From a virus (Duplodnaviria; Caudoviricetes), in the IMG/VR virus record IMGVR_UViG_3300031779_000006, positions 1-37,336 of that record: a DNA stretch of 37,336 nucleotides; one strand, written 5' to 3'. A model generated the notes under the pieces. It ran no database searches. It saw nothing but the letters and a program-made list of their open reading frames with translations, and was not told the DNA's origin. The position numbers were made by a program, and so were the translations under genes. Shown here piece by piece: positions 1 through 27,820 of the stretch (positions are counted from its first letter, which is position 1; each line of letters begins with the position of its first letter).

Positions 1-1
1 C

Positions 2-904
2 ATCCGAGTTCTGTTGCGTGGCTCGCCGGGCGTGGCGGGTAGCCGGGGCACGAGGTGGCGCGCCAGCCATAGGCGGTATGCGGCACTGCGAGCCAGGTTC
101 CGGGCCAGCCCGCACCTGCCGCACCACCGGCCCTGGCATCACCCGTGGCGGGTGCTGCCCGGCGCCGGGATGGGCATGCGGCACCGGTTCCGGACCTGGC
201 GCACCCGCTGGGCCAGGTACCGCTGGAGCCGGGGCTGGCGCGCGGGCCTGGTGCTGCCCCGCGACCGGCACGGTCGGCTGCTGACCCGGCGCCAGCGGAT
301 CGCTCGCTGGTGGCGGATGAAGCGCGGCAGCGCGCCCGGGATCATCCGGCTGCACCGCCGGGAGTCGTTCCGGACCAGGATCGCGAACCAGTGGCGCCGC
401 CGCCGGGCTCGGCCGCCGCGGTCGTGGGCTGACCGGTTCGCCGCCGGCGGGCTCGCGCACTGGCTGGCGATGCGCGCCGACCGGGCGCGGTATCGCCGCT
501 GGAACCGCCGCCGCGGTACGCCGGCCCCGCAGCCGCAGCCGCGCGGCAGGCCGGCCACGACGCCGGCGCACACACCGAACGGGACCGGCAGGATGCCGGG
601 ACGAAGGACACGAGCAGGAGGAGGACGCACCGTGGACACGGGAGCAATGGCAGACGAGATCAGGTCGATGGCGGGCCGGGACTTCTCGGACCCGCAGGAC
701 GTGCACGACACCGTGTCGGGCGTGCACGAGATCGTCGCGGCGCTGCAGGAGGCCCTGAACGAGATGGGCCAGCGGCTGGAGGAGACTGGCGTGCACCCGG
801 CCTACCCGACCGCGATCCAGGAGGCCGCCAGCCAGATGAGCGGGATCGCCGATGAGCTGGAAGCCGTCACGTCCGGCGGCGTCATGCGCGGACCTGGATC
901 ATAG
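2..904 (+). CDS. 5'-truncated Arg/Trp-rich protein with C-terminal helical (TraA-like) domain; possible separate or internal start at GTG 632
   Basis: Frame is open from the window edge; strong SD AGGAGGAGG precedes in-frame GTG 632; last ~90 aa are acidic and amphipathic, similar in character to 8977-9270. Confidence 0.55.
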   Translation: MRVLLRGSPGVAGSRGTRWRASHRRYAALRARFRASPHLPHHRPWHHPWRVLPGAGMGMRHRFRTWRTRWARYRWSRGWRAGLVLPRDRHGRLLTRRQRIARWWRMKRGSAPGIIRLHRRESFRTRIANQWRRRRARPPRSWADRFAAGGLAHWLAMRADRARYRRWNRRRGTPAPQPQPRGRPATTPAHTPNGTGRMPGRRTRAGGGRTVDTGAMADEIRSMAGRDFSDPQDVHDTVSGVHEIVAALQEALNEMGQRLEETGVHPAYPTAIQEAASQMSGIADELEAVTSGGVMRGPGS

Positions 905-908
905 GGGG

Positions 909-1229
909 ATGAGCGACGACGAACTGCACCCCGGTGACATCGAGGCGCCCGGCGCGCTGGACATCCCGGCCGGGCGCTGCGGCACCGGCACGATCGACGG
1001 CGCCTGCTGGCGACCCGGCGACCCGGTCAAGCACCTCGGCCCGCCGGCCCGGCTGGCGATCCCGCCGTATTCGGCGCTGTTCCAGACCCGGTGTGGCCTG
1101 GGGCCGCGCTACCCGGACGGGAAGCCGATGGGCTGGACCCCGCAAGCCTGGGGCGAGAACGACGACTACTGGTGCGTGCCGTGCCTGCGCCAGGCGGGCA
1201 TCAGCTACCAGCTGTGGACCGACGACTGA
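909..1229 (+). CDS. hypothetical Cys-containing protein
   Basis: ATG after AGGGGG, high GC3, CxxC near C-terminus. Confidence 0.7.
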   Translation: MSDDELHPGDIEAPGALDIPAGRCGTGTIDGACWRPGDPVKHLGPPARLAIPPYSALFQTRCGLGPRYPDGKPMGWTPQAWGENDDYWCVPCLRQAGISYQLWTDD

Positions 1230-1239
1230 TGGAGGCATT

Positions 1240-1491
1240 GTGGCGGGCAGCTGGGATCACATGACCACCAGCGGCGGCAGGTTCCGGAACAACGAGACCT
1301 TCTGCGGCATGATCGAGAACCTGGGCGACGCGTACGAGGCCGCCGAGGAGTGCTTTGGCATGGTGCAGTGGCTGGCTAACGAGCTGGCTGTGTCCCAGCC
1401 GACACGGGGTTCCCGCACGGACTGGGTCCGCCGGGCCAGGCGGCACTACCAGGAGGGCCTGCGCATCGGCGGGCGCCAGCGCGAGAGGTAG
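1240..1491 (+). CDS. hypothetical protein
   Basis: GGAGG SD then GTG; tight operon packing, high GC3. Confidence 0.7.
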   Translation: MAGSWDHMTTSGGRFRNNETFCGMIENLGDAYEAAEECFGMVQWLANELAVSQPTRGSRTDWVRRARRHYQEGLRIGGRQRER

Positions 1492-1506
1492 CGGGGAGGA
1501 GGACCG

Positions 1507-4500
1507 GTGAGCGAGCACGACGAGGAGGAGCTGGACGAAGCCTTCGGCGACGCGTCGCGTAACGACGGCTGGCGCGGGCTGGTCCGCGAGCAGGGAGGCC
1601 CGCCGCGCATCAAGACGGGCAAGGACCTGTTCCTGCACTGCCTGGAAAGCGCCGGGCTGGTGTTCGTCGCCTCGCTGGTTGCTGCCGGGCTGCCGCTGCA
1701 CCGCGTGATCGCCTGGCAGCTGGTTACTCTCGCCTTCGCCTGCCTGACCGCGGTCACGTTCTACACCGCGTACCGGACCACCCGGTCCGCGTTCATGTCG
1801 TCTTACCTGCTGGCCTGGGGCGTGCTGCTCACCGTCTGGTTCACCGCCGCGTGGCATTTCGGCGTGCCGCACGAGATGGTCATCGCCGGCCTGTTCATCC
1901 CGTGCCTGATCCTGGCCGGGATCGGCCCGGTTGCGATCGGCCATCACCGCCAGGCGCTGGCCCGTCAGGACGAGGCCGCGCTGGGCCGGGCCAATGAGCT
2001 GGAGATCAAGCGCTGGGTCCGGTTCTTCGCCAACCACGGCGCGCCCGGCGTCAAGATCATCGACGTCCGGGAGGAGCACGGGGTCATCGAGGTCCGCGGC
2101 GAGCTGGGCCGGGCTACCCGGGACCGGCGGGCGATGACGTACCGGCAGCTGGAGATGTGCGCCGCGGAGATGGCGGTCAGCCTGAAGCGGGACAGCGACG
2201 GGGTGTACTTCTCCAAGCCCGAGCGCGGCCACGCGGCCGACTTCGTGCTGCACGTCCGGCCGAAGCGCCACGGGGCCAGGCCGACCGTGCACATGCCGCT
2301 GGAGAACAAGCCGCTGACCGTGAACCGGCCGCTGGAGTTCGGCGTGTTCGACAACGGCAAGCCGTTCCGGCAGCTCATGCGCGAGGTCCACGTGCTGATC
2401 GGGGGCAGCACTGGCTGGGGCAAGGCGCTAGCCTGTGATACCCCGGTCCCGGTCCCGGCCGGCTGGGCGACCATGGGCGAGATCCGGCCCGGTGACCTGG
2501 TCTTCGATGAGACTGGGAACCCGGTCCGGGTCCTGGCCGCCACGGAGGTCATGGAAGGCCGGCCGTGCTACGAAGTCGAGTTCAGTGACGGTACGGTCAT
2601 CACCGCTGACGCGTGGCACCAGTGGAAGGTAGATACAGCTGCGTCGCGGGCGTCACGTCAGCCTAGGCATCCCGTGACGCTGACTACTGAGCAGATGATC
2701 CCTGGTTTGCGGGATGCGCCGAACGGAAGGCTGAACTACAGCGTCCGGGTGGCTGCCCCGCTGCAGTGCCCCGAAGCGGATCTGCCGGTGCCCCCGTACA
2801 CGCTGGGCGCCTGGCTCGGCGACGGAACATCGGATACCGGGCTGATAACGTCAGCAGACCACGAGATCATCAACGAGATCGAATCTGAAGGCGAGACTGC
2901 CTGGGTCACCCAGGACGCAGCCAGGGGCGTACTCCGGGACAGGCATGCCGTTCTCGCCTGCCTGCTGGCAGATGAGCGGTGTTCCCCGTCAGGGGAAATA
3001 GCCGCGCGAGGGTTGTGCCGCAATCACTGGGAACGCGAACGCCGGGCCGGCAGGCTCGATCAGTGGCCCCTGATGCGGAGCCGTGAAGCCGGCCGCCGGG
3101 AGGTACTGGCCGGGTATCGCATAGGCGACCTCACCTCCCGGCTGGGAGACCTGGGCATGCTTGAGAACAAGCACATTCCGGCCATTTACCAGCGGGCTTC
3201 CGAGTCGCAGCGGAGAGCACTCCTGGCCGGGCTGCTGGACACGGACGGGTACTGCATCCCGAGCGGGACCGCGAAATACTACTCAACGTGCGAGCGGCTG
3301 GCCCGGGACGTGCATCAGCTGGCCTGCGGGCTAGGTTACAAGGCGACCCTGCGCAGCAAGACAGCAAAGCTATACGGGAAGGACTGCGGACTCGTCTGGA
3401 TCGTGGCGTTCACGCCCGCAGATAAGGTGTTCCGGCTCCCGCGGAAGCTGGCCAGGCAGAAGACCGACGTCAGGCCCGTCGTGTTCCGGCGTTACGTGAC
3501 CGCGATCCGGCCCGTGCCGAGCGTGCCGGTGCGCTGCCTGATGGTCGACGGCCCGTCACATCTGTATCTTGCGGGCCATTCTTGTGTCCCTACGCACAAC
3601 AGTTCGCTGCTCAATGTGTTCATCGCTTTGCTAGCCGCCTGTCCCGATTCCCTCATATGGCTCATTGATATGTCGGGCGGGATCACCGCGCGGCCGTGGA
3701 TCATGCCGTACCTGGCCGAGCACGCGAGCAAGCCGGTCATCGACTGGGTGGCCACCGAGCGGGACGAGGCCAAGCTGATGCTGGAGGCCGCGCTGGAGGT
3801 CGGCCGGGTCCGGTCCACCTACCCGGTGTTCGAGAAGATCACCCCGAGCGAGGCCACCCCGGCGCTGTTCCTGCTGTGCGACGACATGGGCGCCTGCTTC
3901 GGGCACGGCAAGGTCACCGGGTCGGTCAAGTCCGGTGACCGGGTGTCCAACTGGGGCCTGTCCCAGCTGGGCAGCGAGTTCACCGAGCTGGCCCGCAAGG
4001 CGGCCGGGTCGATGGTCGGCGCCGTGCAGCGGACCAACGTGGAGCTGATGGGCGGCACCGGGATCAAGGCGATGTCCGACATCCGGTTCGGCCTGCACTG
4101 CAACGACTCGGTCGACGGCGGGCGGATCTTCCCCGACGACCCGGCCGCGGCGCGGATGCTGTACGAGCTGCAGGACCGCGGCGACGCCCTGATCAAGCGG
4201 CCCGGCGGCATCACCCCGGTCGTGCACCTGTACCGGATCGAGCCCGAGGAGCGGATCACCGACCGGGCGCTGTACTGCGGGAACCTGCGGCCCAAACTCG
4301 AACCGCAGTGCGCGGAGCGGCTGCCTGCGTACGCGGGACGCTGGGACCGCAACGCCGACCTGCTGGACACCTGGCGGGAAGCGGCCGGGTTCGCCCCGGC
4401 GCCCGACCCGGAGGACGAGTTCGGGTCGATCGTCGCGTTCAACAAGCTGGACGACCTGACCGAGCCGCCCGGCGGCACCGACCCGCGCGAGAAGCGGATG

Positions 4501-4713
4501 CTGCAGCTGATCCGCGAGGCGGGCTGGACCGGCCTGTACGTGCGCCAGATCATGTCCCGCCTGGAGGCCGAGGGCAAGGCGCCAGCCCGGGAGACCGTGC
4601 AGCGGTGGCTGGCCAAGAACGCGCAGCGCGGCAAGCTGCACCGCCCGGCCCGGGGCAGCGGCTGGCGGTGGGCCAACCTCGGCGACGATGACGATATGCC
4701 TGATGTCATGTAG
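1507..4713 (+). CDS. FtsK/SpoIIIE-family (TraB-like) membrane DNA translocase, intein-containing (676 aa after splicing)
   Basis: About four N-terminal hydrophobic helices, Walker A GGSTGWGK|S split by intein, Walker B-like LFLLCDD, LARKA...AVQR motif, C-terminal winged helix; SD GGAGGAGG. Confidence 0.8.
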   Translation: MSEHDEEELDEAFGDASRNDGWRGLVREQGGPPRIKTGKDLFLHCLESAGLVFVASLVAAGLPLHRVIAWQLVTLAFACLTAVTFYTAYRTTRSAFMSSYLLAWGVLLTVWFTAAWHFGVPHEMVIAGLFIPCLILAGIGPVAIGHHRQALARQDEAALGRANELEIKRWVRFFANHGAPGVKIIDVREEHGVIEVRGELGRATRDRRAMTYRQLEMCAAEMAVSLKRDSDGVYFSKPERGHAADFVLHVRPKRHGARPTVHMPLENKPLTVNRPLEFGVFDNGKPFRQLMREVHVLIGGSTGWGKALACDTPVPVPAGWATMGEIRPGDLVFDETGNPVRVLAATEVMEGRPCYEVEFSDGTVITADAWHQWKVDTAASRASRQPRHPVTLTTEQMIPGLRDAPNGRLNYSVRVAAPLQCPEADLPVPPYTLGAWLGDGTSDTGLITSADHEIINEIESEGETAWVTQDAARGVLRDRHAVLACLLADERCSPSGEIAARGLCRNHWERERRAGRLDQWPLMRSREAGRREVLAGYRIGDLTSRLGDLGMLENKHIPAIYQRASESQRRALLAGLLDTDGYCIPSGTAKYYSTCERLARDVHQLACGLGYKATLRSKTAKLYGKDCGLVWIVAFTPADKVFRLPRKLARQKTDVRPVVFRRYVTAIRPVPSVPVRCLMVDGPSHLYLAGHSCVPTHNSSLLNVFIALLAACPDSLIWLIDMSGGITARPWIMPYLAEHASKPVIDWVATERDEAKLMLEAALEVGRVRSTYPVFEKITPSEATPALFLLCDDMGACFGHGKVTGSVKSGDRVSNWGLSQLGSEFTELARKAAGSMVGAVQRTNVELMGGTGIKAMSDIRFGLHCNDSVDGGRIFPDDPAAARMLYELQDRGDALIKRPGGITPVVHLYRIEPEERITDRALYCGNLRPKLEPQCAERLPAYAGRWDRNADLLDTWREAAGFAPAPDPEDEFGSIVAFNKLDDLTEPPGGTDPREKRMLQLIREAGWTGLYVRQIMSRLEAEGKAPARETVQRWLAKNAQRGKLHRPARGSGWRWANLGDDDDMPDVM
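2425..3600 (+). mobile_element. class 3 intein with LAGLIDADG homing endonuclease (392 aa)
   Basis: Starts ALACDTP (Ala1), block B TADAWHQW, block F VRCLMVD, block G PTHN followed by Ser; endonuclease motifs YTLGAWLGDG and LLAGLLDTDG; lower GC3 than the host gene. Confidence 0.93.
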
Positions 4714-4744
4714 ACTTTTGCAGACTGGAGGATCAGGAGACGTG

Positions 4745-5035
4745 ATGGCAGCATTCCGGGTTACCACAATCCACCTGGACCGTGACCAGGAGGTCAGCGC
4801 CGTTCAGGCAGTGGCCGACGACGTCACCGTTGACTGGATCCGGCTGGCCGTGTCCGGCGGCATGGACATCACCGGAGGCGACCCGCAGGGCACGCTGCTC
4901 AAGATGCCCGTTCAGACCATGCTGGAGCTGTTCCGCGCCGCCGGGAAGGTGCCCGGCAACGACCCGTGGGGGCCGCATGCGCACGTCATCTACGACAGCC
5001 TGTCCCACGTCGTGTACGGGCTGATCGAGGAGTAG
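4745..5035 (+). CDS. hypothetical protein
   Basis: SD AGGAG, ATG, high GC3; TAGACT -10-like element at 4711. Confidence 0.7.
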   Translation: MAAFRVTTIHLDRDQEVSAVQAVADDVTVDWIRLAVSGGMDITGGDPQGTLLKMPVQTMLELFRAAGKVPGNDPWGPHAHVIYDSLSHVVYGLIEE

Positions 5036-5037
5036 CC

Positions 5038-5511
5038 ATGAGAGCCGTTTACCGCTGGTACTCCCGGGCCTCCGCCCGGCTCAGCTGCAACCCCGCGGTC
5101 GTCGGCGTCGGCATCGTGCTCCTCGCCTTCACCTACATCGGCGGCGCGGCCATCTACCAGCACCGGTCCCAGGTAATCACCGCCGGCCGGTTCGCCGCCG
5201 CGCTCGTGCTCGCGCTCGCCGCCGTCGCGCTGCTGGCCAAGGCCGCGCACACGGTCTCGATGGCCGAAGGCAGCCACTACCAGATCGTCCCGGTCCCCGA
5301 GGCGGAGCGCGCTGCGGCGCAGGCCGAGCCGGAGACCGGGCCTGTCCGCGTGGACCGGCCGGGCGAGCCGGTGCACAGCTACACGCTGCGTACCGCGGCC
5401 GAGACCGCGGCCATGACCGCCGACGCCGACACGCTGGCCGAAGACGACACCGGGATCGTGGTCGGCGCGGACGGCACCGTCTACGAGCTGACCGGCGAGG
5501 AGCGATCGTGA
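5038..5511 (+). CDS. membrane protein (2 TM)
   Basis: Two hydrophobic segments; SD GAGGAG; GTGA overlap with next gene. Confidence 0.75.
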   Translation: MRAVYRWYSRASARLSCNPAVVGVGIVLLAFTYIGGAAIYQHRSQVITAGRFAAALVLALAAVALLAKAAHTVSMAEGSHYQIVPVPEAERAAAQAEPETGPVRVDRPGEPVHSYTLRTAAETAAMTADADTLAEDDTGIVVGADGTVYELTGEERS

Positions 5512-5876
5512 GCACGTACCTGTTCCCGCCGCCTCGCGAGTTCGCCCAGCGGCTCGGCGATCACCTGGGCATCCAGCTGACCGGGAAGACCGGCTGGCGG
5601 GCCATCCCCCGGAACAAGCACGGCCAGCGGTGCCCGCGATGGGACGCGGAGTGGTTCGAGGTGGCCGCGTACTTCACCGACATGGGCACCAGCCTGACCC
5701 GGATGCAGGAGCTGCTGGCCGCGGAGTTCGGCTGCGTGCGCACCACCACGATCACCGGGAACCCGGCGCGGATCGCCGACGAGGACTGGCCTGGCTGGAC
5801 GCGACGGAAGAACCGCGAGGACCTGCGTCCGCAGGTCCTCGCGCTGTTCGCCGACCCTCCGGGAGACAAGCCGTGA
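5508..5876 (+). CDS. hypothetical protein
   Basis: GTGA overlaps on both sides, SD GAGGAG. Confidence 0.75.
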   Translation: MSTYLFPPPREFAQRLGDHLGIQLTGKTGWRAIPRNKHGQRCPRWDAEWFEVAAYFTDMGTSLTRMQELLAAEFGCVRTTTITGNPARIADEDWPGWTRRKNREDLRPQVLALFADPPGDKP

Positions 5877-6217
5877 CGTACCTCCTGGCCGGGATCGGTA
5901 TCCTGCTGCTGGCCGCCGGCTACCACGGGGTGACCGAGCATCACTGGCATCTGGTTTACTTCTGGCGGTTCGTCCGGCCCGGCATCGTCATCCCGCCGAC
6001 CCGGCACGACACCCGCTGGCACTCGATGAGCCACGCGGCGCGGACCGGCATCGACGTGGTGATGCTGCTCTCGGCCGCGGCCATCGGCACCGCACTGCGG
6101 ATCTGGCCGAGGCCCGCCGTTATCGGCCTGGTTGTCGCCTTCGCCGCGCTGATCACGGCGGGCGGCGTGCGGGCGATTTCCCGGGCGCTGTCCGGCCGGG
6201 GTTACGAGGAGGACTGA
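5873..6217 (+). CDS. membrane protein (3 TM)
   Basis: GTG overlapping previous stop; hydrophobic helices. Confidence 0.75.
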   Translation: MTYLLAGIGILLLAAGYHGVTEHHWHLVYFWRFVRPGIVIPPTRHDTRWHSMSHAARTGIDVVMLLSAAAIGTALRIWPRPAVIGLVVAFAALITAGGVRAISRALSGRGYEED

Positions 6218-6357
6218 TGAACGATCTCGGCGGGCTGGTCCGGACCGTCATCTTCTGGCTCGTGATCATCTGGCTCGCGGTCTTCGTGTTCACCCACTGG
6301 GCGGAGGTCAGTCACGCGTTCGGCGTGTTCATCGACACCGCCAAGCCGCACCACTAG
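6217..6357 (+). CDS. small membrane protein (46 aa), not in ORF track
   Basis: TGATG overlap, SD GAGGAGG, MNDLGGLVRTVIFWLVIIWLAVFVF... Confidence 0.7.
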   Translation: MNDLGGLVRTVIFWLVIIWLAVFVFTHWAEVSHAFGVFIDTAKPHH

Positions 6358-6366
6358 GAGGCCGTC

Positions 6367-6669
6367 GTGCTGCGCGTGCTGATCCCGCTGGCTACGGCGA
6401 TCGCGGTCATCTGCGCGATCTCCGGCTTCGCCGCGGGCGCGGCCGTGGCCGCGGTCATTGACGTGTACCTGATCTCGCTGGCCGTGTACCCGAACCGGCA
6501 GTGCGCCTCGTGCGGCGGGTCCAAGCGGCACGGCCTGTCCGGCTCGCGGAACAGCCGCCACTGCTGGAAGTGCCACGGCAAGGGCGAGTACCCGCGCCTG
6601 GGCGTGCGGCTGTTCCGGCGTGACGTTTACGCGGCGATCCGGCGCGGCGAGCACGGGAGGAACTACTGA
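6367..6669 (+). CDS. membrane protein with CxxCxG...CxxCxGxG zinc finger
   Basis: SD AGGAGG; hydrophobic N-terminus; CASCGGS and CWKCHGKG. Confidence 0.8.
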   Translation: MLRVLIPLATAIAVICAISGFAAGAAVAAVIDVYLISLAVYPNRQCASCGGSKRHGLSGSRNSRHCWKCHGKGEYPRLGVRLFRRDVYAAIRRGEHGRNY

Positions 6670-6803
6670 TGCCTGAGCAGTGGGTGATGGAATACGCGCG
6701 GTGGCGCGCCGCCCAGGACGAGCCCGAGGAGGGCTGGGCTGAGGCCGACCTTGAGCTCGCGTTCAAGGCCGGCTGGGAAGCACGACAAGACCAGGAGACC
6801 TAG
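6669..6803 (+). CDS. small hypothetical protein (44 aa), not in ORF track
   Basis: TGATG overlap, SD GGGAGG; fills the gap exactly; AFKAGWEAR motif. Confidence 0.65.
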   Translation: MPEQWVMEYARWRAAQDEPEEGWAEADLELAFKAGWEARQDQET

Positions 6804-7220
6804 ATGACGCAAATCACCACCGAACAGGCCCGCGAGGTGCTGTGGGCCAGCTCCGAGGAGGGCAAGGCCCAGCTGGCCGCCGCCTGGGCGAAGGCACAGT
6901 ATCTCGGGCTGGCTGTCGCGGTACGCCGCGCGGATGCCGGCCGCGGGATCACCATTGACGAGCTGGGCGCGCTGCTGTGGGCCGCGCACACCGCGCTGCT
7001 GCCCCTGCCGCAGCACCCGGCCATGACGCGCATGCTGCAGCTCATCGAGGAGCGCGGCGAGGACGGCGCGACGCTGCGCGAGGTGGCGGTCTGGCTGTCC
7101 GCCGAGGGCATGACCCCGACCCGGGAGTCCCTGCACCGCTGGGCGCACGAGTACGAGCGGGACGGCGTGCTGGAGCGTGGCGGCCGGACCCGTTATTCCT
7201 GGCGGACGGTGAAGCGGTGA
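6804..7220 (+). CDS. winged-helix protein paralogous to the C-terminal domain of the TraB-like translocase
   Basis: RMLQLIEERGEDG...LSAEGMTPTRESLHRW aligns with RMLQLIREAGWTG...LEAEGKAPARETVQRW. Confidence 0.8.
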   Translation: MTQITTEQAREVLWASSEEGKAQLAAAWAKAQYLGLAVAVRRADAGRGITIDELGALLWAAHTALLPLPQHPAMTRMLQLIEERGEDGATLREVAVWLSAEGMTPTRESLHRWAHEYERDGVLERGGRTRYSWRTVKR

Positions 7221-7438
7221 GCGGCGGGACGGTGCTGTCCGGCTGCTGCTGGTGCCACGTGCTGATCTGCCGGTGGGGCGGCCAGGACCCGTGGCACCGG
7301 ATCCCGGCGCGCGGCGAGCTGCTACTCCCGCAGGCCGCGATGGCGTGCAAGGCCAGCCCGGACGGCCAGCACCACTCCCCGGCCGACTATCCCGAGTGGC
7401 CGCTGCGGACAGCGTCTGATGCCAGCGAGGTGTCCTGA
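7217..7438 (+). CDS. small Cys/His-rich protein
   Basis: GTGA overlap; CCWCH and C...HH. Confidence 0.6.
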   Translation: MSGGTVLSGCCWCHVLICRWGGQDPWHRIPARGELLLPQAAMACKASPDGQHHSPADYPEWPLRTASDASEVS

Positions 7439-7671
7439 TGGCGGCCGTAATGCAGCCCGATCCGTGGCTGCTGCCGCCTGAGCAGCGCACCTGCACCCGC
7501 TGCGGGCACGTGCTGGTCGGCGAGGACGAGGCCGGCTTCTACTACCAGGTCCCTATCCAGGACCCGGAAACCAAGATCGTCTTCATGGACCGGGTGCATT
7601 CCTGCGTGGAAGGCTCGTTCCCCGGGTGGCCGCACGTGATGCCCGAGGGGTGGCCCGATGCCGGCCGGTAG
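7438..7671 (+). CDS. small zinc-ribbon-like protein
   Basis: TGATG overlap; CTRCGH...HSC. Confidence 0.65.
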   Translation: MAAVMQPDPWLLPPEQRTCTRCGHVLVGEDEAGFYYQVPIQDPETKIVFMDRVHSCVEGSFPGWPHVMPEGWPDAGR

Positions 7672-8293
7672 CCTCGCCCCGGTGGCCCGGACGGTGACCT
7701 TCGTGCCCGGCCTGGTGATGGCTGCCGCCGGCTGGGCGTACCTCGGGCAGCCGCTCGCTGTCCCCGGTCCGCACGAGCAGCTGTTCCGCCTGGCCGGGCT
7801 CGGCGTGTTCCTGCTCGCCGGGCTGGTCATCTGGCCGGCGCTGGTGCTGTCGGCGCTCCTGCTCGGCCCGGCCGCGCTCGCGGGCCTGGTCGTGCCGCGC
7901 GGGATACGCGGCCGGTACCGGCGGCACCTGATCGAGTCCGGCACCCCCCGAGACCGCCAGCGCAGCAGCTACATCAGCAAGCGGCTCCGTCGCGTGGTGA
8001 GCGCCGCCGACCGGCACCGCTGCGTTGCCTGCAAGACCCGCCGCGGGGTGATGCACGTCGACCACTGCCGCCCCTGGATCGCCGGCGGCAGAACTGTGCT
8101 GACCAACCTGTTCCTGCTCTGTGAGCGTCATAACCTCGTGAAAAGCAACTACAACAAGGACCGCGACGGGTACGAGCACTACCACGGCGACCGCGCCAAC
8201 ATCGCCGAGGCCCGCTGGATCCTGCGCCGCGAGCGGATCCATCGCTGGAACCCGTTCCGCTGGGTCCGGGCGGCCTGGGCGCTGGCGCGATGA
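7658..8293 (+). CDS. membrane-anchored HNH endonuclease
   Basis: Hydrophobic N-terminal ~75 aa then CVAC...HVDHCRPWIAGG..VLTNLFLLCERHNLVKS. Confidence 0.85.
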   Translation: MPAGSLAPVARTVTFVPGLVMAAAGWAYLGQPLAVPGPHEQLFRLAGLGVFLLAGLVIWPALVLSALLLGPAALAGLVVPRGIRGRYRRHLIESGTPRDRQRSSYISKRLRRVVSAADRHRCVACKTRRGVMHVDHCRPWIAGGRTVLTNLFLLCERHNLVKSNYNKDRDGYEHYHGDRANIAEARWILRRERIHRWNPFRWVRAAWALAR

Positions 8294-8826
8294 GCGACAA
8301 GCTGATCGGCGTGCGGGAGGCATCTCGGCGCCTCGGCGTGCACGAGAACACTGTCCGGAACTGGATGGCATCCGGGACCATCCAGGCAGCTATGAGGACA
8401 TCCCGGTCCACCAAGTTCACTGAGGCGGAGGTGGAGCGCGTGCGGCAGTTGCTGGAAGCCCAGGCCGGGCGCGACGAGGTAGCCAGGGACTTGCGGGATA
8501 CAGCGGCCAGGGCCGGCAAGGAACGGGTCCAGACCACGGTCCGGTTCCACCGCGGCCGGTACCGGGCCGTCAGCGAGGTCGCCGAGCTGATCGGCACTTC
8601 TCGCGAGGACGCGGTGCACCTGCTGATCGGCGAGGGGCTGAGCGTGCTGTACGCCCGGCTCGGAATCGAGCCCGATCCGGCCGTGCACGCCCTGGAGCTG
8701 CTGAAGCTTGTCACCGGTACCTGGCATGCAGACCTGTCCGATGACGAGCTGTCCGCGTTCAGGATCACCATGGCGGCGCTGGAGCGCATCGCTCAGGTGC
8801 GGGCCAGGGAGACGGAGGACGGATGA
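8290..8826 (+). CDS. MerR/excisionase-like HTH DNA-binding protein
   Basis: LIGVREASRRLGVHENTVRNWMASG; possible ribbon-helix-helix second domain (QTTVRF...). Confidence 0.8.
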   Translation: MSDKLIGVREASRRLGVHENTVRNWMASGTIQAAMRTSRSTKFTEAEVERVRQLLEAQAGRDEVARDLRDTAARAGKERVQTTVRFHRGRYRAVSEVAELIGTSREDAVHLLIGEGLSVLYARLGIEPDPAVHALELLKLVTGTWHADLSDDELSAFRITMAALERIAQVRARETEDG

Positions 8827-8987
8827 CCGACCAGGAACTGCTGGAGCGGCTGCGGGCGATAACCCAGAAGTGGATCTCTCAGGCCCGGCACCCGCAGCGG
8901 ATGGACAAGCCGGAGCAGCGTGACCTGATCATGCGGCACGTGGCCGACGTGGAGGGCCTGGCCCGGGAGATACGCGATGGCGGGTGA
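8823..8987 (+). CDS. small hypothetical protein (54 aa), not in ORF track
   Basis: ATGA overlap, SD GGAGG; MTDQELLERLRAI... Confidence 0.65.
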   Translation: MTDQELLERLRAITQKWISQARHPQRMDKPEQRDLIMRHVADVEGLAREIRDGG

Positions 8988-9270
8988 GGTCATCAGCGCG
9001 ATGTCCGACGCGGCCGAGATGAGCTATATCCCGGACGGCCCGAAGGACCTGATGAGGATGCTGGAGTGTTTCCCGCACCTGTTCGAGATGCTGGGTGCCG
9101 GGATGCACGAGCTGGGCCAGTACATGTCCGGGCTGGGCGGCGTCCTGGAGGAGCAGGGCGCGGCCATGGAGGACGCGGCGGGCACCGTGGACGCCCTGTT
9201 CGGGACGACGAGCGACATCTTCCTGGCCGTCAACGAGCAGGGCGGCGGCTTCTGGGCCAGTGACGGATGA
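8977..9270 (+). CDS. helical-hairpin protein, TraA-like (tentative)
   Basis: Acidic amphipathic 97 aa resembling 632-904. Confidence 0.65.
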   Translation: MAGEVISAMSDAAEMSYIPDGPKDLMRMLECFPHLFEMLGAGMHELGQYMSGLGGVLEEQGAAMEDAAGTVDALFGTTSDIFLAVNEQGGGFWASDG

Positions 9271-9524
9271 CGTCGCCTGAGTACCGTCGGCGCCGGGATG
9301 ACGTCCAGCCGGGCGACCTCGCCTGGCAGCCTCCCGCCCGGCTGATGAAAGGCGGCCACCGGATCAGCCTGCGGCCCGGCTGGCGGCCGATCCAGACCCG
9401 TAGGTATCCCGCCTGGTGGTGGCCGTTCGAGATCGCGAACCGCTGGCAGGCCCGGGCCGCGAAGCACCTGAGCGAGGAGCTGCGCCGCGGCGAGGAGCAG
9501 ATCCCGGACGAAACTTCCCACTGA
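9267..9524 (+). CDS. hypothetical protein
   Basis: ATGA overlap; last gene of the run. Confidence 0.6.
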   Translation: MTSPEYRRRRDDVQPGDLAWQPPARLMKGGHRISLRPGWRPIQTRRYPAWWWPFEIANRWQARAAKHLSEELRRGEEQIPDETSH

Positions 9525-9525
9525 A

Positions 9526-9543
9526 GTTCCCATCGGTGGGAGG
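9526..9543. repeat. near-palindromic repeat copy 1 (GTTCCCATCGGTGGGAGG)
   Basis: 18/18 match to reverse complement of 30586-30603; 16/16 to 19410-19425. Confidence 0.85.
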
Positions 9544-9969: not shown

Positions 9970-10851
9970 ATGCCCCAGTACCAGACCGGCAGCTCCCGGG
10001 CCGACTCCGTCAACAACCCGGTCATCGCCGGCGAGCTACGCCGGTTCCGGGAGAGCCTGAACGGCGTGACCGGCGACCGGGTCGCGGCCGACCTGAAATG
10101 GTCGCCGTCCAAGGTTTCCCGGCTGGAGCGCGGCCGGACCGCGACCAGGCGCAAGGCGCTCGCCCAGATCCTGTCCTACTACGCTCAGTGGCACGGGATG
10201 GCCCCGGAAAAGGCCGAGGCGCTGATGCGGATGTTCGATGCGGCGATGGAGCAGTCCGGGCTGCTGAACGCCTGGCTCGGCCCGTCCGTGCTCGCCGCTA
10301 CGGTCACCGAGTGGGCGCCGTACGCGGTGCCGCGCCTGCTGCAGGTCCCGGCCTACGCCAGGGCCGTCTTGCGCGAGATGCAGCAGGTCACCCAGATGCC
10401 GCCGTCCGAGATCGAGGACACGGCCGCCGCGATCGCTCGCTGGCAGGCCCGGCTGAAGGACAAGCCTCCTGTCGCGCTGCGCGCCCTGCTCGATGAGGGC
10501 GTGCTGCACCGGGTGGTCGGCAGCCCGGCCGTCATGCGCGACCAGCTCAGGTACCTGGAGAAGATCTCCACGACCCGGGGCACCGATGTCCAGATCCGGA
10601 TCCTGCCGCTGTCCGCGTCCGGCCCGCGGTGGACCAACGGGTTCGCCTACCTGGAGTACGCGCCGCCGGCCGATGGCACGACCCCGCCACCGCCGCCCGA
10701 GGTGGTCACCGAGGACCTGGAAGGACCTGCCCAGCCGGACCTGAACGAGCGGCTGACCTGGAAGCGGTACACGCTGTGGACCCAGTTGTGGGCCGTCGCC
10801 GACGAGCCCGGCCCGGCGGTCAAGCGGGCGCTGACCGAGACCTGGACCTGA
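9970..10851 (+). CDS. XRE-family HTH regulator with DUF5753 domain (WhiJ/Scr1-like)
   Basis: ELRRFRE...VAADLKWSPSKVSRLERG; VPRLLQVPAYARAV; LDEGVLHRVVGSPAVMRDQLRYL. Confidence 0.9.
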   Translation: MPQYQTGSSRADSVNNPVIAGELRRFRESLNGVTGDRVAADLKWSPSKVSRLERGRTATRRKALAQILSYYAQWHGMAPEKAEALMRMFDAAMEQSGLLNAWLGPSVLAATVTEWAPYAVPRLLQVPAYARAVLREMQQVTQMPPSEIEDTAAAIARWQARLKDKPPVALRALLDEGVLHRVVGSPAVMRDQLRYLEKISTTRGTDVQIRILPLSASGPRWTNGFAYLEYAPPADGTTPPPPPEVVTEDLEGPAQPDLNERLTWKRYTLWTQLWAVADEPGPAVKRALTETWT

Positions 10852-12655: not shown

Positions 12656-12672
12656 CGGCTGGTCCGCCTCCG

Positions 12673-12709
12673 CCTCCCGGGAGGCCGTCGCGTACGGTCC
12701 TCCCGGGAG
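12673..12709 (+). terminator. GC-rich hairpin after secreted-protein gene
   Basis: CTCCCGGGAGG...CCTCCCGGGAG inverted repeat. Confidence 0.5.
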
Positions 12710-12839
12710 AGGGGCAAAGGGGAGGGTAATCCGGTGAAGCTAGCTGTCATCACGGCTGCCTTCCCCTGCACTCAGCAAGACGCCGGCCAGCGGAGAGGCC
12801 GCTGGCCGGCTAGCGCGCAAAACCCAAAGGGAGGGTATT

Positions 12840-19408: not shown

Positions 19409-19409
19409 C

Positions 19410-19425
19410 TTCCCATCGGTGGGAG
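19410..19425. repeat. near-palindromic repeat copy 2 (TTCCCATCGGTGGGAG)
   Basis: Identical to 9527-9542. Confidence 0.85.
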
Positions 19426-19483: not shown

Positions 19484-19846
19484 GTGCCCGAGCCGTCAGA
19501 ACTCGATCGGCTGGTGCTCGGCCCTGATGCCGCGTTCGCCGAGGCCGCGTCCCCGCCGCCGAAGACGCCGCCGCGCCGCAAGGGCAAGATCGAGCTCGCG
19601 GTCGGCCGGGATCTGCGTGCCATGCCCGCCGCACTGCGCGCCTCCGCGCTGGCTGCCTCCGCCCTGGACCTGGCCCGCGACCTGGACGAAACCGAGATGA
19701 CCCCGCGTGACAAGGCCGGGATCGCGCGCGAGCTGCGCATGCACATGAATGACCTGGCCGCGCAGGCGCCTGGCGAGCGCAAAGGCGACTCCACCGACGA
19801 GGTCCGGGAGCGGCGCGAGCGGCGGCTGGCCGCGACCGGGGAATAA
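19484..19846 (+). CDS. terS: terminase small subunit (probable)
   Basis: Helical ALDLARDLD...ARELR...DEVRERRERR pattern typical of actinophage TerS; upstream of TerL. Confidence 0.7.
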   Translation: MPEPSELDRLVLGPDAAFAEAASPPPKTPPRRKGKIELAVGRDLRAMPAALRASALAASALDLARDLDETEMTPRDKAGIARELRMHMNDLAAQAPGERKGDSTDEVRERRERRLAATGE

Positions 19847-21052: not shown

Positions 21053-22732
21053 ATGTCCGTCCTCACCGTCGTACCGGATGTCTGGCTGCCAGACGGCACC
21101 GTGCTGCGCGGCCAGGATGCTCTCGGCGTGCAGCAGCCCAGATTCTGGACCGCTCCGCCCCGGCACCGGGTCAAGACCGATGGCTGCCCGGCCTGCGCGA
21201 ACGCCGACTACGCCGCCGGCTGCGGGGACTATGCCTCGGCCGACATGCTCGAATGGGCGGCCGGGCTCGGCTACGACCTGGATCCGTGGCAGCAGTGGTG
21301 GCTGACCGAGCTGTGCGGGACCAAGCCGGACGGCCGCTGGTCCGCGTTCGAGGGCATGCTGATCTGCTCCCGGCAGAACGGGAAGAACCAGGCTGCTGAG
21401 GTGCGGGAACTCGCTGGCATGTTCTTGTTCGGCGAGTCGATGATCATCCATACCGCTCATGAGTTCAAGGCCGCCGCGGAGCATTTCCGCCGGGTCCGGG
21501 ACATGGTCACCGGCTGGGACGAGCTGCGCCGCCGGGTCAAGGCCGTCACCACCTCCCACGGCGACGAGGCCATCGAGCTGCGGCCCGCCCCGACGCTGAT
21601 CTTCGGCTCCGGCGGCCGGCGCATCCGCCGCAACGTCGCCGCCCGGCTGCGGTTCCTGGCCCGCTCCCGCGGATCGGGCCGCGCGTTCACCGCCGACACG
21701 GTGGTTTACGACGAAGCGATGATCTTGAGCGACGAAGTGGTCGGGGCCTCGCTGCCGACCCTGAGCGCCGTGCCGAACCCGCAGGTCATCTACATGGCCA
21801 GCGCCGGTTACCGGGACTCCATCCAGCTGGCCGCGGTGCGTCGCCGGGTGCTCAAGCGCGACCCCACGCTGATGGGCGCCGAGTGGTCGATCAACCCGCA
21901 CACCGACACCTGCCCGCGCGATGAGATGCGGGGCCGCAAAGTCAACCGGTACGTGGTCTGCGCACAGCACGACGACCGGGATGACCCGCGCTCCTGGGCC
22001 AAGGCCAACCCGGCGCTCGGCGTGCGGATCGCCGTCGACCACGTCGTGCACGAGCTGGAGGCGATGACCGCCCCGACGTTCGACCGGGAAAGGCTCGGCG
22101 TCGGCGACTGGCCGGCCGGGGACGAAGCCTGGGCGGTGATCAGCGAGGAGGCGTGGGGCGCCTGCGCGATGTCCGACCCCGGTGGCGCCACCCGGCCGGT
22201 TACCTTCGCCATCGACATCGACCCCGATATGCTGTCCGCCTCCATCGCCGCCTGCTGGGAGCGGCCCGCCCAGCCCGGCAGCCCGGAGCCCAGGTTCGTG
22301 ATCGAGATCCCGCGCGGCTGCCACCGGGAGGGCACCGCCTGGATCATGCCGCAGCTGCTGGAGCTGCGCCGTAAGTGGAAGCCTGCCGCTGTCGCTATCC
22401 CGCGCAACGGCCCGGCCGCCGCGCTGATCAGTGACGCCGAGAAGCAGGGCATGGAGATCTTCGCGATGTCCAGCGCGGACGAGGCCGCCGCGTTCACCCT
22501 GCTGGTCACCGGGGTCCGCGACCGGACCCTCCTGCACCTGGGCCGCGAGCTCGCTCCCGGCCTGCACTCCGCGGTAGCCAGTGCCGAGACCCGCGACGTC
22601 GGCGACGGCGGCCGGGCCTGGTGCCGCCGCGACTCCGCATCCGACATCACCCCCGTTACCAGCGCGACCAACGCGCACTGGGCGCTGAACCGCAAGCGCC
22701 GTCATTACGATCTTTTGGCTTCAGTCAGGTAG
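21053..22732 (+). CDS. terL: terminase large subunit
   Basis: LDPWQ, SRQNGKN (Walker A), VVYDEA (Walker B), WAKANPALG, FAIDID nuclease, SDITPVTS. Confidence 0.95.
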   Translation: MSVLTVVPDVWLPDGTVLRGQDALGVQQPRFWTAPPRHRVKTDGCPACANADYAAGCGDYASADMLEWAAGLGYDLDPWQQWWLTELCGTKPDGRWSAFEGMLICSRQNGKNQAAEVRELAGMFLFGESMIIHTAHEFKAAAEHFRRVRDMVTGWDELRRRVKAVTTSHGDEAIELRPAPTLIFGSGGRRIRRNVAARLRFLARSRGSGRAFTADTVVYDEAMILSDEVVGASLPTLSAVPNPQVIYMASAGYRDSIQLAAVRRRVLKRDPTLMGAEWSINPHTDTCPRDEMRGRKVNRYVVCAQHDDRDDPRSWAKANPALGVRIAVDHVVHELEAMTAPTFDRERLGVGDWPAGDEAWAVISEEAWGACAMSDPGGATRPVTFAIDIDPDMLSASIAACWERPAQPGSPEPRFVIEIPRGCHREGTAWIMPQLLELRRKWKPAAVAIPRNGPAAALISDAEKQGMEIFAMSSADEAAAFTLLVTGVRDRTLLHLGRELAPGLHSAVASAETRDVGDGGRAWCRRDSASDITPVTSATNAHWALNRKRRHYDLLASVR

Positions 22733-25108: not shown

Positions 25109-26679
25109 ATGGGACTTTTCGAGCGTATCCAGTCGAGCAGGGCTGAGACACGTGTGATTGGCGGGGTGCCTTGGCGCCCTTGGGACAGTCCTTACTGGTT
25201 AGGCGTTTTGATACTGGAGGGCCTGTCCATCCTAGTAGACAGGTTTTCGGCACCGACCGGGCTCTCGGTCTGCCCGCCCTGTACGCCGGCACCAACCTGC
25301 TGGCGTCCTCGTGCGCGGCGCTGCCGCTGAAGCTGTACGTCAAGCCCGGCCCGCGTGACAACCGGACCCGGCGGTACACCGGCCCGTCGATTTTCGACAA
25401 CCCGAGCTCCACCGGAACGATTTTCGACTGGCTGTTCACGGCCATGACGTCGCTGCTGCTGCAGGGCAACGCGTGGGGGTACATCACCGGGCGCGACGGC
25501 TACGGGCTGCCCAGCGGCATTGAGTGGATCCCGCCCGAGGACGTCAACGTCACCGACGACGAGATGCAGCCGTGGAACCCGATGCGTGCCCGGATCTACG
25601 TCTACGGCCGGCTGATGGACCGCAGCGAGCTGTTCCACGTCAAGGCGTTCAGCTTGCCCGGGCGCATCGAGGGGATTTCCCCGCTGCGCGCGTTCGCGCT
25701 GACCATCCTGTCCGGGTTGGAGGCCGAGCGCTACGGGACCGACTGGTATATGGCCGGGGGTTTCCCACCTGGGACTTTCCAGAACAACGAGCTGGAGGTC
25801 TCCGACGAGCAGGCCCAGGAGATCCGGGCCATGCTCGTGTCCACGATGCGCCGCCGTGAGCCGCTGGTGTACGGACGCGACTGGGACTACAAGCCAGTAG
25901 TGGTGCCGCCGAGCGAAGCGCAGTTCATTGAGGCGCTACGGATGAATGCGACGCAGATTGCCTCGGTGCTAAACCTGCCACCAGATCGCATTGGTGGTAC
26001 TCGCGGGGACAGCTTGACCTATAATACTGTAGAGCAAAGCACACTGCAAGTTATAGAAGCGTTGCGGCCGTGGCTCGTGAGGCTGGAGACGGCGTTCTTC
26101 AACCTGCTGCCGACCAACCGGTACTGCCGCTTCAACAGCGATGCCATGCTCAAGACCGATCTCAAGACCCGCACCGAGATCTACGACCTGCAGCGCTCAA
26201 TGGGCCTGCGGTCCATTGACGAGATGCGCGACCTGGAGGACCTGGAACCGATCCCCGGCGGGCAGGGCAACGAGTACATCCCCCTGGACGTCATGGTGGC
26301 GATGGCCCGGTCGATCCGCGGCATCCCCAAGTCGATGGAGTCGGCGATCGACCTGGAGATGGACCTGGCGGCCGACAAGCTGCAGGACCTGGCCAAGGAA
26401 GGGCTCGCCGCGCCGACTCCCGCGCCGACTCCCGAGGTTCCCTCGGCGGAGCAGATGCTCGGGCAGATCATCGGATCCCAGCGGCACTACGGCACGCGCG
26501 AGGAGCGCGACGACGCCGAGCTCATCTGGAATTTCCTGCAGGCCAAGCGCGCGGCGGAGCGCGCCCAGGCCCACCGGCAGGCGGACGGCCCCGAGTTCGT
26601 GGGCGCCTGGATCCCGAGCAAGCGGGACCTGGTGCTGTCCGGGGCGAATGGCAGCGGAAACGGCGGCGATGGTCACTGA
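25109..26679 (+). CDS. HK97-family portal protein, reading frame broken near 25199-25203 (alternative TTG starts 25171/25180)
   Basis: LLLQGNAWGYI, LFHVK...GISPL, SEAQFIE...IASVLNLPP..IG, YNTVEQ, SIDEMRDLEDLEPIPGG; portal-like N-terminus MGLFERI lies in another frame. Confidence 0.9.
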
Positions 26680-26694
26680 TGAAAGGTCTGTTAC

Positions 26695-27720
26695 ATGAGT
26701 GAATCCAGGGCCGAGATGACGTCAGCGGCCATCAACGACCTCCCCGATTCTGCTTTTGCCTATATAGAGCCTGGTGGCTCTAAGGATGCCGGGGGGAAGA
26801 CGATACCTAGGAGCAAGCGGCACTTTCCTGTGCATGACGAGGCTCACGCTAGGAATGCACTCGCTCGCGCTCCGCAGTCGCCCTTCGGCAAGCAGGCCAT
26901 GAGCAAGATCCTGGCCGCATGCCGCAAGTTCGGGGTCACGGTCTCCGGCGACAACCGCGCCGCGTTCGGCGAGCTGCCCCCGGACGGCATGCCCGAGCGC
27001 CGCTTCACCCGGTTCCCGCCCGAGGTGCGCCAGGAGGCCGAGCACGGCCCGCAGTTCATCTACGGCTACGCGGCGGCGTTCGGCAAGCTGAGCCGCAAGC
27101 TGGGCGGCTTCGTGGAGCAGGTGGACCCGACCGCGTTCAACGAGACCAAGACCCTCGGCTGGCCCGACGTGGTCTGCAGGTACAACCACAAGGACGACGC
27201 CCTGCTGGGTACCACGCACGCCGGCACGCTGCGGCTGGCCACTGACCAGACCGGGCTCGCCTATGAGGTCAATCCGCCGCACGCCCGCGCCGACGTCCTC
27301 GAATACGTGACCCGCGGCGACGTGCGGCACAGCTCGTTCGCGTTCCGGGTGTTCCCCGGCGGCGACGAGTGGGGCGTGTCGGAGTTCAACTACCCGATGC
27401 GCACGTTGCTGTCGGTGCAGCTGGTAGACGTGGCGCCCGTGTTGGACCCGGCCTACCCGGATGCCACCGCCGGCGCCCGCGCGCTCAACGGCGCAGTCCA
27501 GAGCCTCGCCGACTGGGTGCAGGCCGACGTGGAGGAGGTCCGCAGCAGGCTCAACGAAGGCCGGGCGATGGAGTTCTTCAAGCGCTACCGCGACATCGAC
27601 GGCGGCAGGCCGAAGCCTGACCAGCGCGTCCGGCCGCCCAAGAAGCCGGTACTGACCGGTGCCCAGGCCCTGCTCACCCTGCAGGCCAACATGGAAGACC
27701 CCTGGGTGGACGAGGAGTAA
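26695..27720 (+). CDS. HK97-family prohead protease with extra N-terminal (DUF6582-like) domain
   Basis: GYAAAF, GGFVEQV, YNH, SSFAF, DVAPVLDPAY; N-terminal NDLPDSAFA...RHFPVHDEAHARNALAR. Confidence 0.9.
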   Translation: MSESRAEMTSAAINDLPDSAFAYIEPGGSKDAGGKTIPRSKRHFPVHDEAHARNALARAPQSPFGKQAMSKILAACRKFGVTVSGDNRAAFGELPPDGMPERRFTRFPPEVRQEAEHGPQFIYGYAAAFGKLSRKLGGFVEQVDPTAFNETKTLGWPDVVCRYNHKDDALLGTTHAGTLRLATDQTGLAYEVNPPHARADVLEYVTRGDVRHSSFAFRVFPGGDEWGVSEFNYPMRTLLSVQLVDVAPVLDPAYPDATAGARALNGAVQSLADWVQADVEEVRSRLNEGRAMEFFKRYRDIDGGRPKPDQRVRPPKKPVLTGAQALLTLQANMEDPWVDEE

Positions 27721-27745
27721 CAACCACGCAGTAACCAGTGCAAGC

Positions 27746-27784
27746 GCGCTGAGGCCGTAGCTGATCAACGGACGGAGCGAGCGC
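27746..27784 (+). promoter_or_regulatory. leader hairpin motif, covarying copy 4 (major capsid)
   Basis: GCGCT-GAGGCC-GT(N13)AC-GGAGCG-AGCGC. Confidence 0.6.
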
Positions 27785-27820
27785 AGGTGCAGAAGGCAAC
27801 CAACGCGAAAGGGAAAGAAA

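What the first reader, a model, noticed from the sequence alone, without database searches (positions are those of the whole stretch)
1..9524. Actinomycete plasmid-type conjugation module on the same molecule as a phage head module
Seen: TM-FtsK-wHTH translocase flanked by small membrane proteins, TraA-like helical proteins, a membrane zinc finger and an excisionase-like HTH, co-oriented and with the same codon style as the terminase-capsid genes. The 16-18 bp repeat occurs in both halves, which argues for one element. Established: Streptomyces TraB alone transfers double-stranded plasmid/AICE DNA between hyphae. Inference: a phage able to spread both as virions and by TraB-type transfer.
Basis: partly seen in the sequence, partly recalled or inferred. 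Interest (0 to 1): 0.75.

Follow-up and report, generated by a model that had tools for sequence, protein, structure and literature searches.

The report
Large phages carry plasmid DNA pump
A group of large uncultured soil phages carries, next to its head genes, the membrane DNA-pump genes that actinomycete plasmids use to move between hyphae, so these phages likely can pass their DNA from cell to cell without a virion; one smaller phage is a known precedent.

Summary
Observation confirmed; interpretation partly supported. 1507-4713 encodes a membrane-anchored FtsK-type translocase with a C-terminal winged helix, split in Walker A by an intein. It groups with the Tra protein of plasmid-phage pZL12 and actinomycete plasmids, not with chromosomal FtsK or EccC. 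The cassette belongs to the phage: independent assemblies span the junction, and 6 of 10 related records keep it upstream of the terminase. The other 4 are cut before the site. All fall in one capsid clade, and 0 of 9 sister phages carry it. Unlike pZL12, the two circular relatives (164 and 210 kb) show no integrase, recombinase or ParAB, but have their own primase-polymerase. Best reading: an accessory pump that likely moves phage DNA through the mycelium during infection. Against this, Walker B reads DD instead of DE in this subclade, no clt site is shown, and transfer is untested. Phage plus TraB is known (pZL12, Hiyaa, P1312), and this scan noted it before on other DNA. This is a new variant of a known kind.

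The parts
1..904 (+). 3' part of TraA-like gene (684 aa in L001:3559-5613: 2 N-terminal TM, Arg-rich linker, C-terminal helical hairpin at 632-904)
   Evidence: weak HMM links to the proteins upstream of Tra in S. atratus plasmid, pTH1, Hiyaa gp101 (E 0.003-0.007)
909..1229 (+). small Cys-containing protein, kept in G004 and G010
1240..1491 (+). small ORF, no family
1507..4713 (+). TraB/pZL12-type FtsK translocase (TM - motor - winged helix), 676 aa after predicted splicing
2425..3600 (+). intein with LAGLIDADG endonuclease inserted in Walker A
   Evidence: (GC3 0.78); mini-inteins at the same site in G005 and P0020
4474..4680 (+). C-terminal winged-helix domain, homologous to C-termini of pFQ12 Tra and Hiyaa gp102
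4745..6357 (+). five small genes, three of them membrane proteins (5038, 5873, 6217): Spd-like by position and TM content
   Evidence: Spd role inferred
6367..6669 (+). membrane protein with two CxxC (zinc finger)
6804..7220 (+). stand-alone copy of the translocase's winged-helix domain
   Evidence: E 7e-13; similar copies in G003 and G005
7658..8293 (+). membrane-anchored HNH nuclease, present in all 6 TraB-bearing relatives
8290..8826 (+). excisionase-family HTH fused to a second domain
8977..9270 (+). second helical-hairpin (TraA-like) protein
9527..9542 (+). palindromic repeat, candidate operator, copy 1
9970..10851 (+). XRE/DUF5753 regulator
19410..19425 (+). palindromic repeat, copy 2, upstream of the terminase region
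19484..19846 (+). probable small terminase (by position and conservation)
   Evidence: inferred
21053..22732 (+). large terminase
25171..29077 (+). portal, prohead protease, HK97-type major capsid protein
30586..30603 (-). palindromic repeat, copy 3, inside a coding sequence

Best explanation
The stretch is a native accessory cassette of one clade of large tailed phages, encoding a pZL12-type Tra translocase with membrane partners that likely pumps the phage's double-stranded DNA across hyphal cross-walls or into touching hyphae of a likely filamentous actinobacterial host. SHOWN: gene content, domain order, motor fold, tree position, fixed place upstream of terminase, presence in one capsid clade, and no integrase/ParAB hit in circular relatives. 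INFERRED STEPS: the intein splices out and restores Walker A; the protein forms a membrane hexamer; the winged helix binds short repeats on the phage DNA (candidate: the repeat arrays upstream of the module); the DUF2637-like, TraA-like and small TM proteins build the channel as Spd proteins do. The phage replicates with its own primase-polymerase and still makes virions, so the pump would give it a second, virion-free route through the mycelium during a lytic or carrier-type infection.
For: LINKAGE: L001 and L012 (one independent record) and L002 match the window at 99.9% across 15-29458 with the same traB-terL distance. Logan contig depth is similar over tra and terminase pieces within each of 4 runs (these runs may include the source sample). 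CONSERVATION: 6 of 10 terL-selected records carry the gene, at 33-56% identity in the C-terminal part and in the same order. The 4 others end before the site. The 6 TraB-positive capsids (window included) and the 4 cut records form one clade, 100/99; 0 of 9 sister records have it, and 2 of 2 positive controls rang. TraB and TerL distances correlate across 7 phages (Spearman 0.51, 42 of 5040 permutations). TREE: the family (17 rows, 100/99) lies in a 96/89 clade with phiZL12 Tra, pFQ12, pSQ10, pFRL3, pTH1, Hiyaa and P1312, apart from chromosomal FtsK and EccC. FOLD: best match is the FtsK motor, E 6e-16. GENE ORDER: membrane protein - large helical protein - Tra repeats that of pZL12, pFQ12 and the S. 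atratus plasmid. LIFESTYLE: 0 of 5 long records have Phage_integrase, Recombinase, Resolvase, ParA or ParB. G003 and G005 have Prim-Pol/primase/PolA, helicase, tape-measure-sized tail protein and endolysin. LITERATURE: TraB and Spd act in spreading within the mycelium, and SpdB2 homologues on actinophages were proposed to spread phage DNA (PMC4447253, passages).
Against: Walker B is DD in the window and 10 relatives, while the other 50 of 61 rows have E at the catalytic position; 3 of these relatives also lack the conserved arginine, which the window keeps. The motor may be slow or changed in role. No clt-like 8-bp cluster lies in non-coding DNA next to traB in the window, and the arrays upstream in relatives differ in unit. 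NCBIfam plasmid_TraB is far below cut-off (best 41 of 800 bits; no hit for the window protein). The experimentally tested TraB proteins of pJV1, pWTY27, pIJ101 and pSG5 lie outside the clade. The family's SpdB2-like proteins did not match the pSG5, pJV1 or ZL12 membrane proteins by HMM; only DUF2637 (E about 1e-3) and Hiyaa gp98 matched. The closest bacterial homologues (4 MAG loci scanned) are two-gene units among housekeeping genes with no integrase or Rep nearby, so this branch also has non-mobile members. TraB and TerL trees differ in the place of G003. The host is unknown: the capsid scan of GTDB found no relative. Near-complete sister phages do without the module.
Confidence: 0.5

Rival explanations
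1. A true plasmid-phage like pZL12: it persists as a plasmid prophage using replication and partition genes not recognised here, and conjugates between mycelia by TraB.
For: Same Tra clade and gene order as pZL12. An XRE regulator and a palindromic operator candidate suggest a regulated state. A conserved AT-rich element with direct-repeat arrays upstream of the module could be an iteron origin. Prim-Pol proteins serve AICE replication (PMC3218068, passages). The same sequence is held at 98-99% of words by 24 of 24 listed soil runs, which would fit stable carriage.
Against: No ParA, ParB, integrase, recombinase or resolvase in 0 of 5 long records, whereas pZL12 has ParA, ParB and an integrase. 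No capsid relative in the GTDB scan and no close terminase on PLSDB plasmids (best 37.5%). Completeness of G003 (CheckV 78%) and G005 is not certain.
Confidence: 0.2
2. The protein does not move DNA between cells. It anchors or segregates phage DNA at the membrane, or interferes with host septation or with superinfecting DNA (together with the membrane-tethered HNH), using a weakened motor.
For: Invariant DD Walker B in an 11-member subclade and arginine loss in 3 members. Chromosomal two-gene homologues in MAGs. Phage FtsK-like genes are commonly read as segregation or development-manipulating genes (PMC4569894, PMC10117723, PMC13587820, passages). Stand-alone winged-helix copies and a TM-HNH point to DNA handling at the membrane.
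Against: The whole plasmid-type set (DUF2637-like, TraA-like, small TM genes) is kept with the ATPase. The FtsK-like proteins of LittleE and Bacillus phage Mater group with chromosomal FtsK, this one does not. Six family rows keep DE.
Confidence: 0.25
3. An AICE or plasmid lying next to, or mis-assembled with, a prophage.
For: An excisionase-like HTH lies near the module's end. IMG/VR calls G001 a provirus and its record stops just before the module.
Against: Independent assemblies span the junction. Conserved position in 6 diverged phages and one capsid clade. No integrase or Rep in the module, no tRNA in the window, no long flanking direct repeats.
Confidence: 0.03

Closest known systems
Streptomyces plasmid-phage pZL12 / phiZL12 (NC_013420; Zhong et al. 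2010, paper not held, known here from its title, the record and statements in PMC3583192, PMC4487206, PMC7157519)
   Same: Virion genes plus an FtsK-type Tra on one molecule; Tra in the same starred clade (26% identity, E 4e-10 to the G010 homologue); order membrane protein - large protein - Tra. Its transfer needs tra plus two adjacent genes (PMC3583192).
   Different: 90 kb with ParA, ParB and an integrase. This clade is 164-210 kb, has its own primase-polymerase, shows none of those genes, has a DD Walker B and an intein, and adds TM-Zn, TM-HNH and stand-alone winged-helix genes.
Streptomyces phage Hiyaa and kin (Keanu, Galactica, Spocter)
   Same: DUF2637-like gp98 (E 5e-12 to the family HMM), helical gp101, FtsK-like gp102 in the same Tra clade; own primase/polymerase; no annotated integrase or ParA in the whole record.
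   Different: 83 kb, about 22% identity in Tra; not among the best capsid matches listed. No test of function was found in the searches run.
TraB/Spd systems of pSVH1, pSG5, pJV1, pIJ101, pWTY27 and AICEs
   Same: TM - FtsK motor - winged helix, with small membrane genes in a coupled operon.
   Different: A different branch of the tree; below the NCBIfam TraB cut-off; no clt shown; no integrase or Rep as AICEs require (PMC3218068).
99-kb S. atratus plasmid NZ_CP108279; Thermobifida phage P1312; Saccharomonospora phage PIS 136
   Same: Tra-like ATPase with phage genes; in S. atratus the order is DUF2637 - TraA-like - Tra - terminase.
   Different: Other phage lineages; P1312 has an integrase.

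Membership tests
Actinomycete Tra/TraB dsDNA translocase | N-terminal membrane anchor | tested here: met
   3 TM by hydropathy; four long helices in the homologue model
Actinomycete Tra/TraB dsDNA translocase | FtsK alpha/beta motor fold | tested here: met
   G010 homologue: FtsK motor E 6e-16; PHROG FtsK/SpoIIIE E 2e-14 for the window protein
Actinomycete Tra/TraB dsDNA translocase | Intact catalytic motifs | tested here: inconclusive
   Walker A restored on predicted splicing, arginine and Gln kept, Walker B DD instead of DE
Actinomycete Tra/TraB dsDNA translocase | C-terminal winged helix | tested here: met
   predicted topology; homologous to pFQ12 and Hiyaa C-termini; only weak Pfam/PDB sequence hits
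Actinomycete Tra/TraB dsDNA translocase | Groups with plasmid Tra, not FtsK/EccC | tested here: met
   clade 96/89 with phiZL12 Tra
Actinomycete Tra/TraB dsDNA translocase | clt site of short direct repeats bound by the protein | tested here: inconclusive
   none beside traB in the window; differing arrays upstream in relatives
Actinomycete Tra/TraB dsDNA translocase | Transfer and pock formation | not testable with these tools
   needs culture
NCBIfam NF041214 plasmid_TraB equivalog | score over 800 bits | tested here: not met
   best 41 bits (G010); no hit for the window protein
Plasmid-phage (pZL12 kind) | Virion module on the same molecule | tested here: met
Plasmid-phage (pZL12 kind) | ParA/ParB partition genes | tested here: not met
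   0 of 5 long records; the window's own genome is partial
Plasmid-phage (pZL12 kind) | Stable extrachromosomal prophage | not testable with these tools
   no host genome carries a capsid relative in the scan
AICE | Integrase, Rep and att sites around tra | tested here: not met
Chromosomal FtsK / EccC | Tree position and domain set | tested here: not met
   single ATPase domain, no FtsK_gamma hit

The most novel reading that the evidence does not exclude
A clade of 160-210 kb phages with neither integrase nor partition system captured a plasmid Tra/Spd machine once and uses it as a movement apparatus: it pushes unpackaged genomes through cross-walls and between hyphae, so infection spreads inside the mycelium without lysis or re-adsorption. 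This would be a bacterial counterpart of plant-virus movement proteins. The DD Walker B and the stand-alone winged-helix copies would throttle the pump against DNA packaging.
Probability: 0.3. Interest if true: 0.8.

Novelty: new variant of a known kind. Interest (0 to 1): 0.5.

Why it matters
[quoted passage not shown] If the cassette works without a plasmid prophage state, phages of filamentous bacteria have a virion-free way to cross the compartments of their host. That bears on how multicellular bacteria contain infections and on how up to 200 kb of phage genes move in soil. The cultured phage Hiyaa has the same architecture, so the question can be tested now.

Tried and rejected
Codon style as evidence of one element: not discriminating. 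The 16-bp repeat as a family-wide link: absent from relatives. clt search by 8-mer clusters: nothing non-coding beside traB; the method did recover the pJV1 repeat cluster but not clear ones for pSG5 or pIJ101. LexA-box idea for the upstream element: only one 1-mismatch box there; dropped. WXG100-like fold for the TraA-like hairpin: the model is confident, but the matches are generic helical hairpins (best Z 9.9) and WXG100 is not among the 50 rows listed; inconclusive. Capsid scan of GTDB: 28 pattern hits, none confirmed. Sequencing runs: no RNA holder listed. No listed Logan piece bridges 8187-10854, but only 35-63% of each run was read and 809 pieces were not shown; this hole proves nothing. 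Sigma-70 promoter scan at 9.4-10 kb: none. Records for pSVH1 and SCP2 were not found under the accessions tried, so they are missing from the tree. The pZL12 paper is not held. Eight literature searches listed no paper on this clade or on a test of phage-encoded Tra outside pZL12; subscription papers and supplements were not seen. No complex prediction was run.
Full report
WHAT IS THERE. The window is a whole 37-kb virus record. 1-9524 is a run of + strand genes; terminase, portal, protease and HK97-type capsid follow at 21-29 kb on the same strand. The 1068-aa ORF 1507-4713 has 3 hydrophobic segments, then GGSTGWGK, then 392 residues starting ALACDTP and ending THN with a LAGLIDADG domain, then S and the rest of an ATPase. 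This is an intein in Walker A. A 95%-identical protein without it exists (P0010), and G005 and P0020 carry shorter inteins at the same site. An intein-free homologue (G010; 42% and 56% identical in the two parts), folded from a 21-row alignment, shows four N-terminal helices, an FtsK alpha/beta motor (best PDB match FtsK E 6e-16, then TcpA, then EccC) and a 3-helix + hairpin end. That end is homologous to the C-termini of pFQ12 Tra (2e-9) and Hiyaa gp102 (4e-5); 6804-7220 is a stand-alone copy of it (7e-13), as in G003 and G005. A separate assembly (L001) extends 4.7 kb left. It shows the full TraA-like protein (2 TM, Arg-rich linker, helical hairpin) and a 4-TM protein that matches a DUF2637 protein of another phage at 3e-10. 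The labels TraA-like, Spd-like and SpdB2-like are mine, from position and topology; calling pZL12.71 its Tra rests on the record's FtsK note, recall and an earlier scan note.

ONE ELEMENT. L001, L012 and L002 cover window 15-29458 in overlapping pieces at 99.9%. A terminase scan gave 42 loci; I searched the records behind 10 of the longest non-identical ones. Six carry the translocase, always in the order SpdB2-like, TraA-like, Tra, small TM genes, TM-HNH, then a reverse-strand methylase (not on the same homologue in G010), terS, terL. The four without it (G001, G002, G008, G009) end before that site. A capsid scan gave 177 relatives, 80 shown; nine long records at 78-84% capsid identity have no translocase (0 of 9, three at least 97% complete), while two controls rang. 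In a 23-row capsid tree the six positives (window included; G010 has no capsid gene in its record) and the four cut records form one clade, 100/99. Tra and TerL distances correlate over seven phages (0.51; 42 of 5040 permutations), with one difference in topology. So the cassette was most simply gained once and inherited, and the wider family lives without it. There is no tRNA, no long flanking repeat and no integrase at the module.

WHICH ATPASE. In a 61-row tree of ATPase domains (left out: L131, no Walker A in the frame read; L119, too short; one second EccC domain) the family is one clade (100/99). It sits with MAG and viral homologues, inside a 96/89 clade that holds phiZL12, pFQ12, pSQ10, pFRL3, pTH1, Hiyaa, P1312 and the S. 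atratus 99-kb plasmid; chromosomal FtsK and EccC lie apart. phiZL12 is a long branch. The tested TraB proteins of pJV1, pWTY27 and pIJ101 fall outside this clade, and pSG5 TraB is placed weakly near FtsK. NCBIfam TraB is far under cut-off. Against an ordinary pump: the window and ten relatives have DD at Walker B where the other 50 rows have E; three of them, and Hiyaa, lack the arginine. The change is fixed across diverged proteins, so it looks selected rather than decayed, but activity is unknown. In the four whose flanks I scanned they are two-gene units among housekeeping genes. The host is therefore inferred, not shown.

LIFESTYLE. G003 (164 kb) and G005 (210 kb) are classed as having terminal repeats. 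Their ends lie in tandem repeats, so completeness is not certain (CheckV 78% and 100%), though gene order across G005's junction matches G003. Pfam scans of 121 of 131 and 144 of 155 called ORFs of at least 110 aa, plus PHROG and NCBIfam scans of subsets, show Prim-Pol/primase/PolA, SNF2 helicase, tail and lysis genes and a glycosylation cluster. Six-frame searches found no tyrosine integrase, serine recombinase, resolvase, ParA or ParB in 0 of 5 long records, with controls ringing. Eight sister records also lack integrase, recombinase and ParA, while 3 of 4 distant Tra-bearing viral records have an integrase or recombinase. pZL12 has ParA, ParB and an integrase; Hiyaa has none annotated. Upstream of the module, G003, G004, G005, G007 and partly G006 share an AT-rich non-coding element followed by direct-repeat arrays of 17-38 bp: a candidate origin, clt or genome end, untested and not reached in L001.

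MECHANISM. In Streptomyces, Tra hexamers pump double-stranded DNA from a clt site, and Spd proteins extend this to spreading across cross-walls (PMC4447253, PMC3218068, PMC3583192; passages). Given a full cassette in a phage that shows no maintenance genes, I judge DNA movement through the mycelium during infection the most likely use (0.5). Next come a non-transfer role at the membrane (0.25), a pZL12-like conjugative plasmid prophage with unrecognised maintenance (0.2), and a separate AICE (0.03). No step beyond sequence, structure prediction and phylogeny was shown.

KNOWN OR NEW. Phage plus Tra is known from pZL12 (paper not held; seen as title, record and statements in PMC3583192, PMC4487206, PMC5431353, PMC7157519, passages). 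Thoma et al. already suggested that SpdB2 homologues on actinophages spread phage DNA (PMC4447253). P1312's gene was read as segregation (PMC4569894), and other Streptomyces phage FtsK genes as host-regulatory or development-related (PMC10117723, PMC13587820, bioRxiv 2024.02.16.580700; passages). A 2025 review says no phage-plasmid is known to be conjugative (PMC12282955, passage). A conjugative prophage of Streptococcus appeared in a search listing only (PMC4260502). Four earlier notes of this scan describe similar cassettes on other DNA; they are not independent support. What is new here is the lineage (best cultured capsid match about 32%), its size, the single-gain pattern, the lack of integrase and ParAB, the DD motor, the Walker A intein and the stand-alone winged-helix copies. 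Verdict: new variant of a known kind, interest 0.5.

Noticed in passing
window 19443, 20994, 24967, 30772: Motif CCCGCGGCC-N3-9-GGAGCCGGG before terS, terL, portal and a post-capsid gene; conserved at like places in G001-G005, G008-G010. Candidate late-gene leader or RNA element; no copy in the tra module.
   Followed up: partly
G003 68500-69100; G005 139500-140350; G004 82900-83360; G007 42450-43050: Conserved AT-rich non-coding element plus direct-repeat arrays upstream of the tra module.
   Followed up: partly
L113-L120 (MAGs): Helical-hairpin gene plus Tra-like ATPase as a two-gene unit among housekeeping genes, no integrase or Rep in the flanks of 4 loci scanned: possibly a domesticated chromosomal Tra.
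   Followed up: partly
L137 near 6840: A 1412-aa stop-free frame holds a Tra-like ATPase followed by a chromosomal-type FtsK ATPase.
   Followed up: no
window 33148-37336 and relatives: Glycosyltransferase/methyltransferase cluster right after the head genes, with epimerases in G003/G005: possible virion glycosylation.
   Followed up: no
window 18035-18919, 20149-20943, 11531-13301: Ferric-reductase-like membrane protein, a protein that looks vWA-like by eye (no family hit), and two proteins with signal-like N-termini between the modules.
   Followed up: no
G003 19338-20981; G005 75898-77574: TROVE/Ro60 gene in both circular relatives.
   Followed up: no
G005 terL, exonuclease and traB: Inteins related to the window's in three genes.
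   Followed up: no
L134:3728-4180: Stand-alone FtsK_gamma protein upstream of a Tra gene in another phage, paralleling window 6804.
   Followed up: no
window 34545-35002: Tandem duplicated small Cys-rich gene pair.
   Followed up: no
G001 record end at 190216: Record classed as provirus stops just before where the XRE and tra module lie in G010; trimming of the plasmid-like part as host DNA would explain this, not verified.
   Followed up: partly
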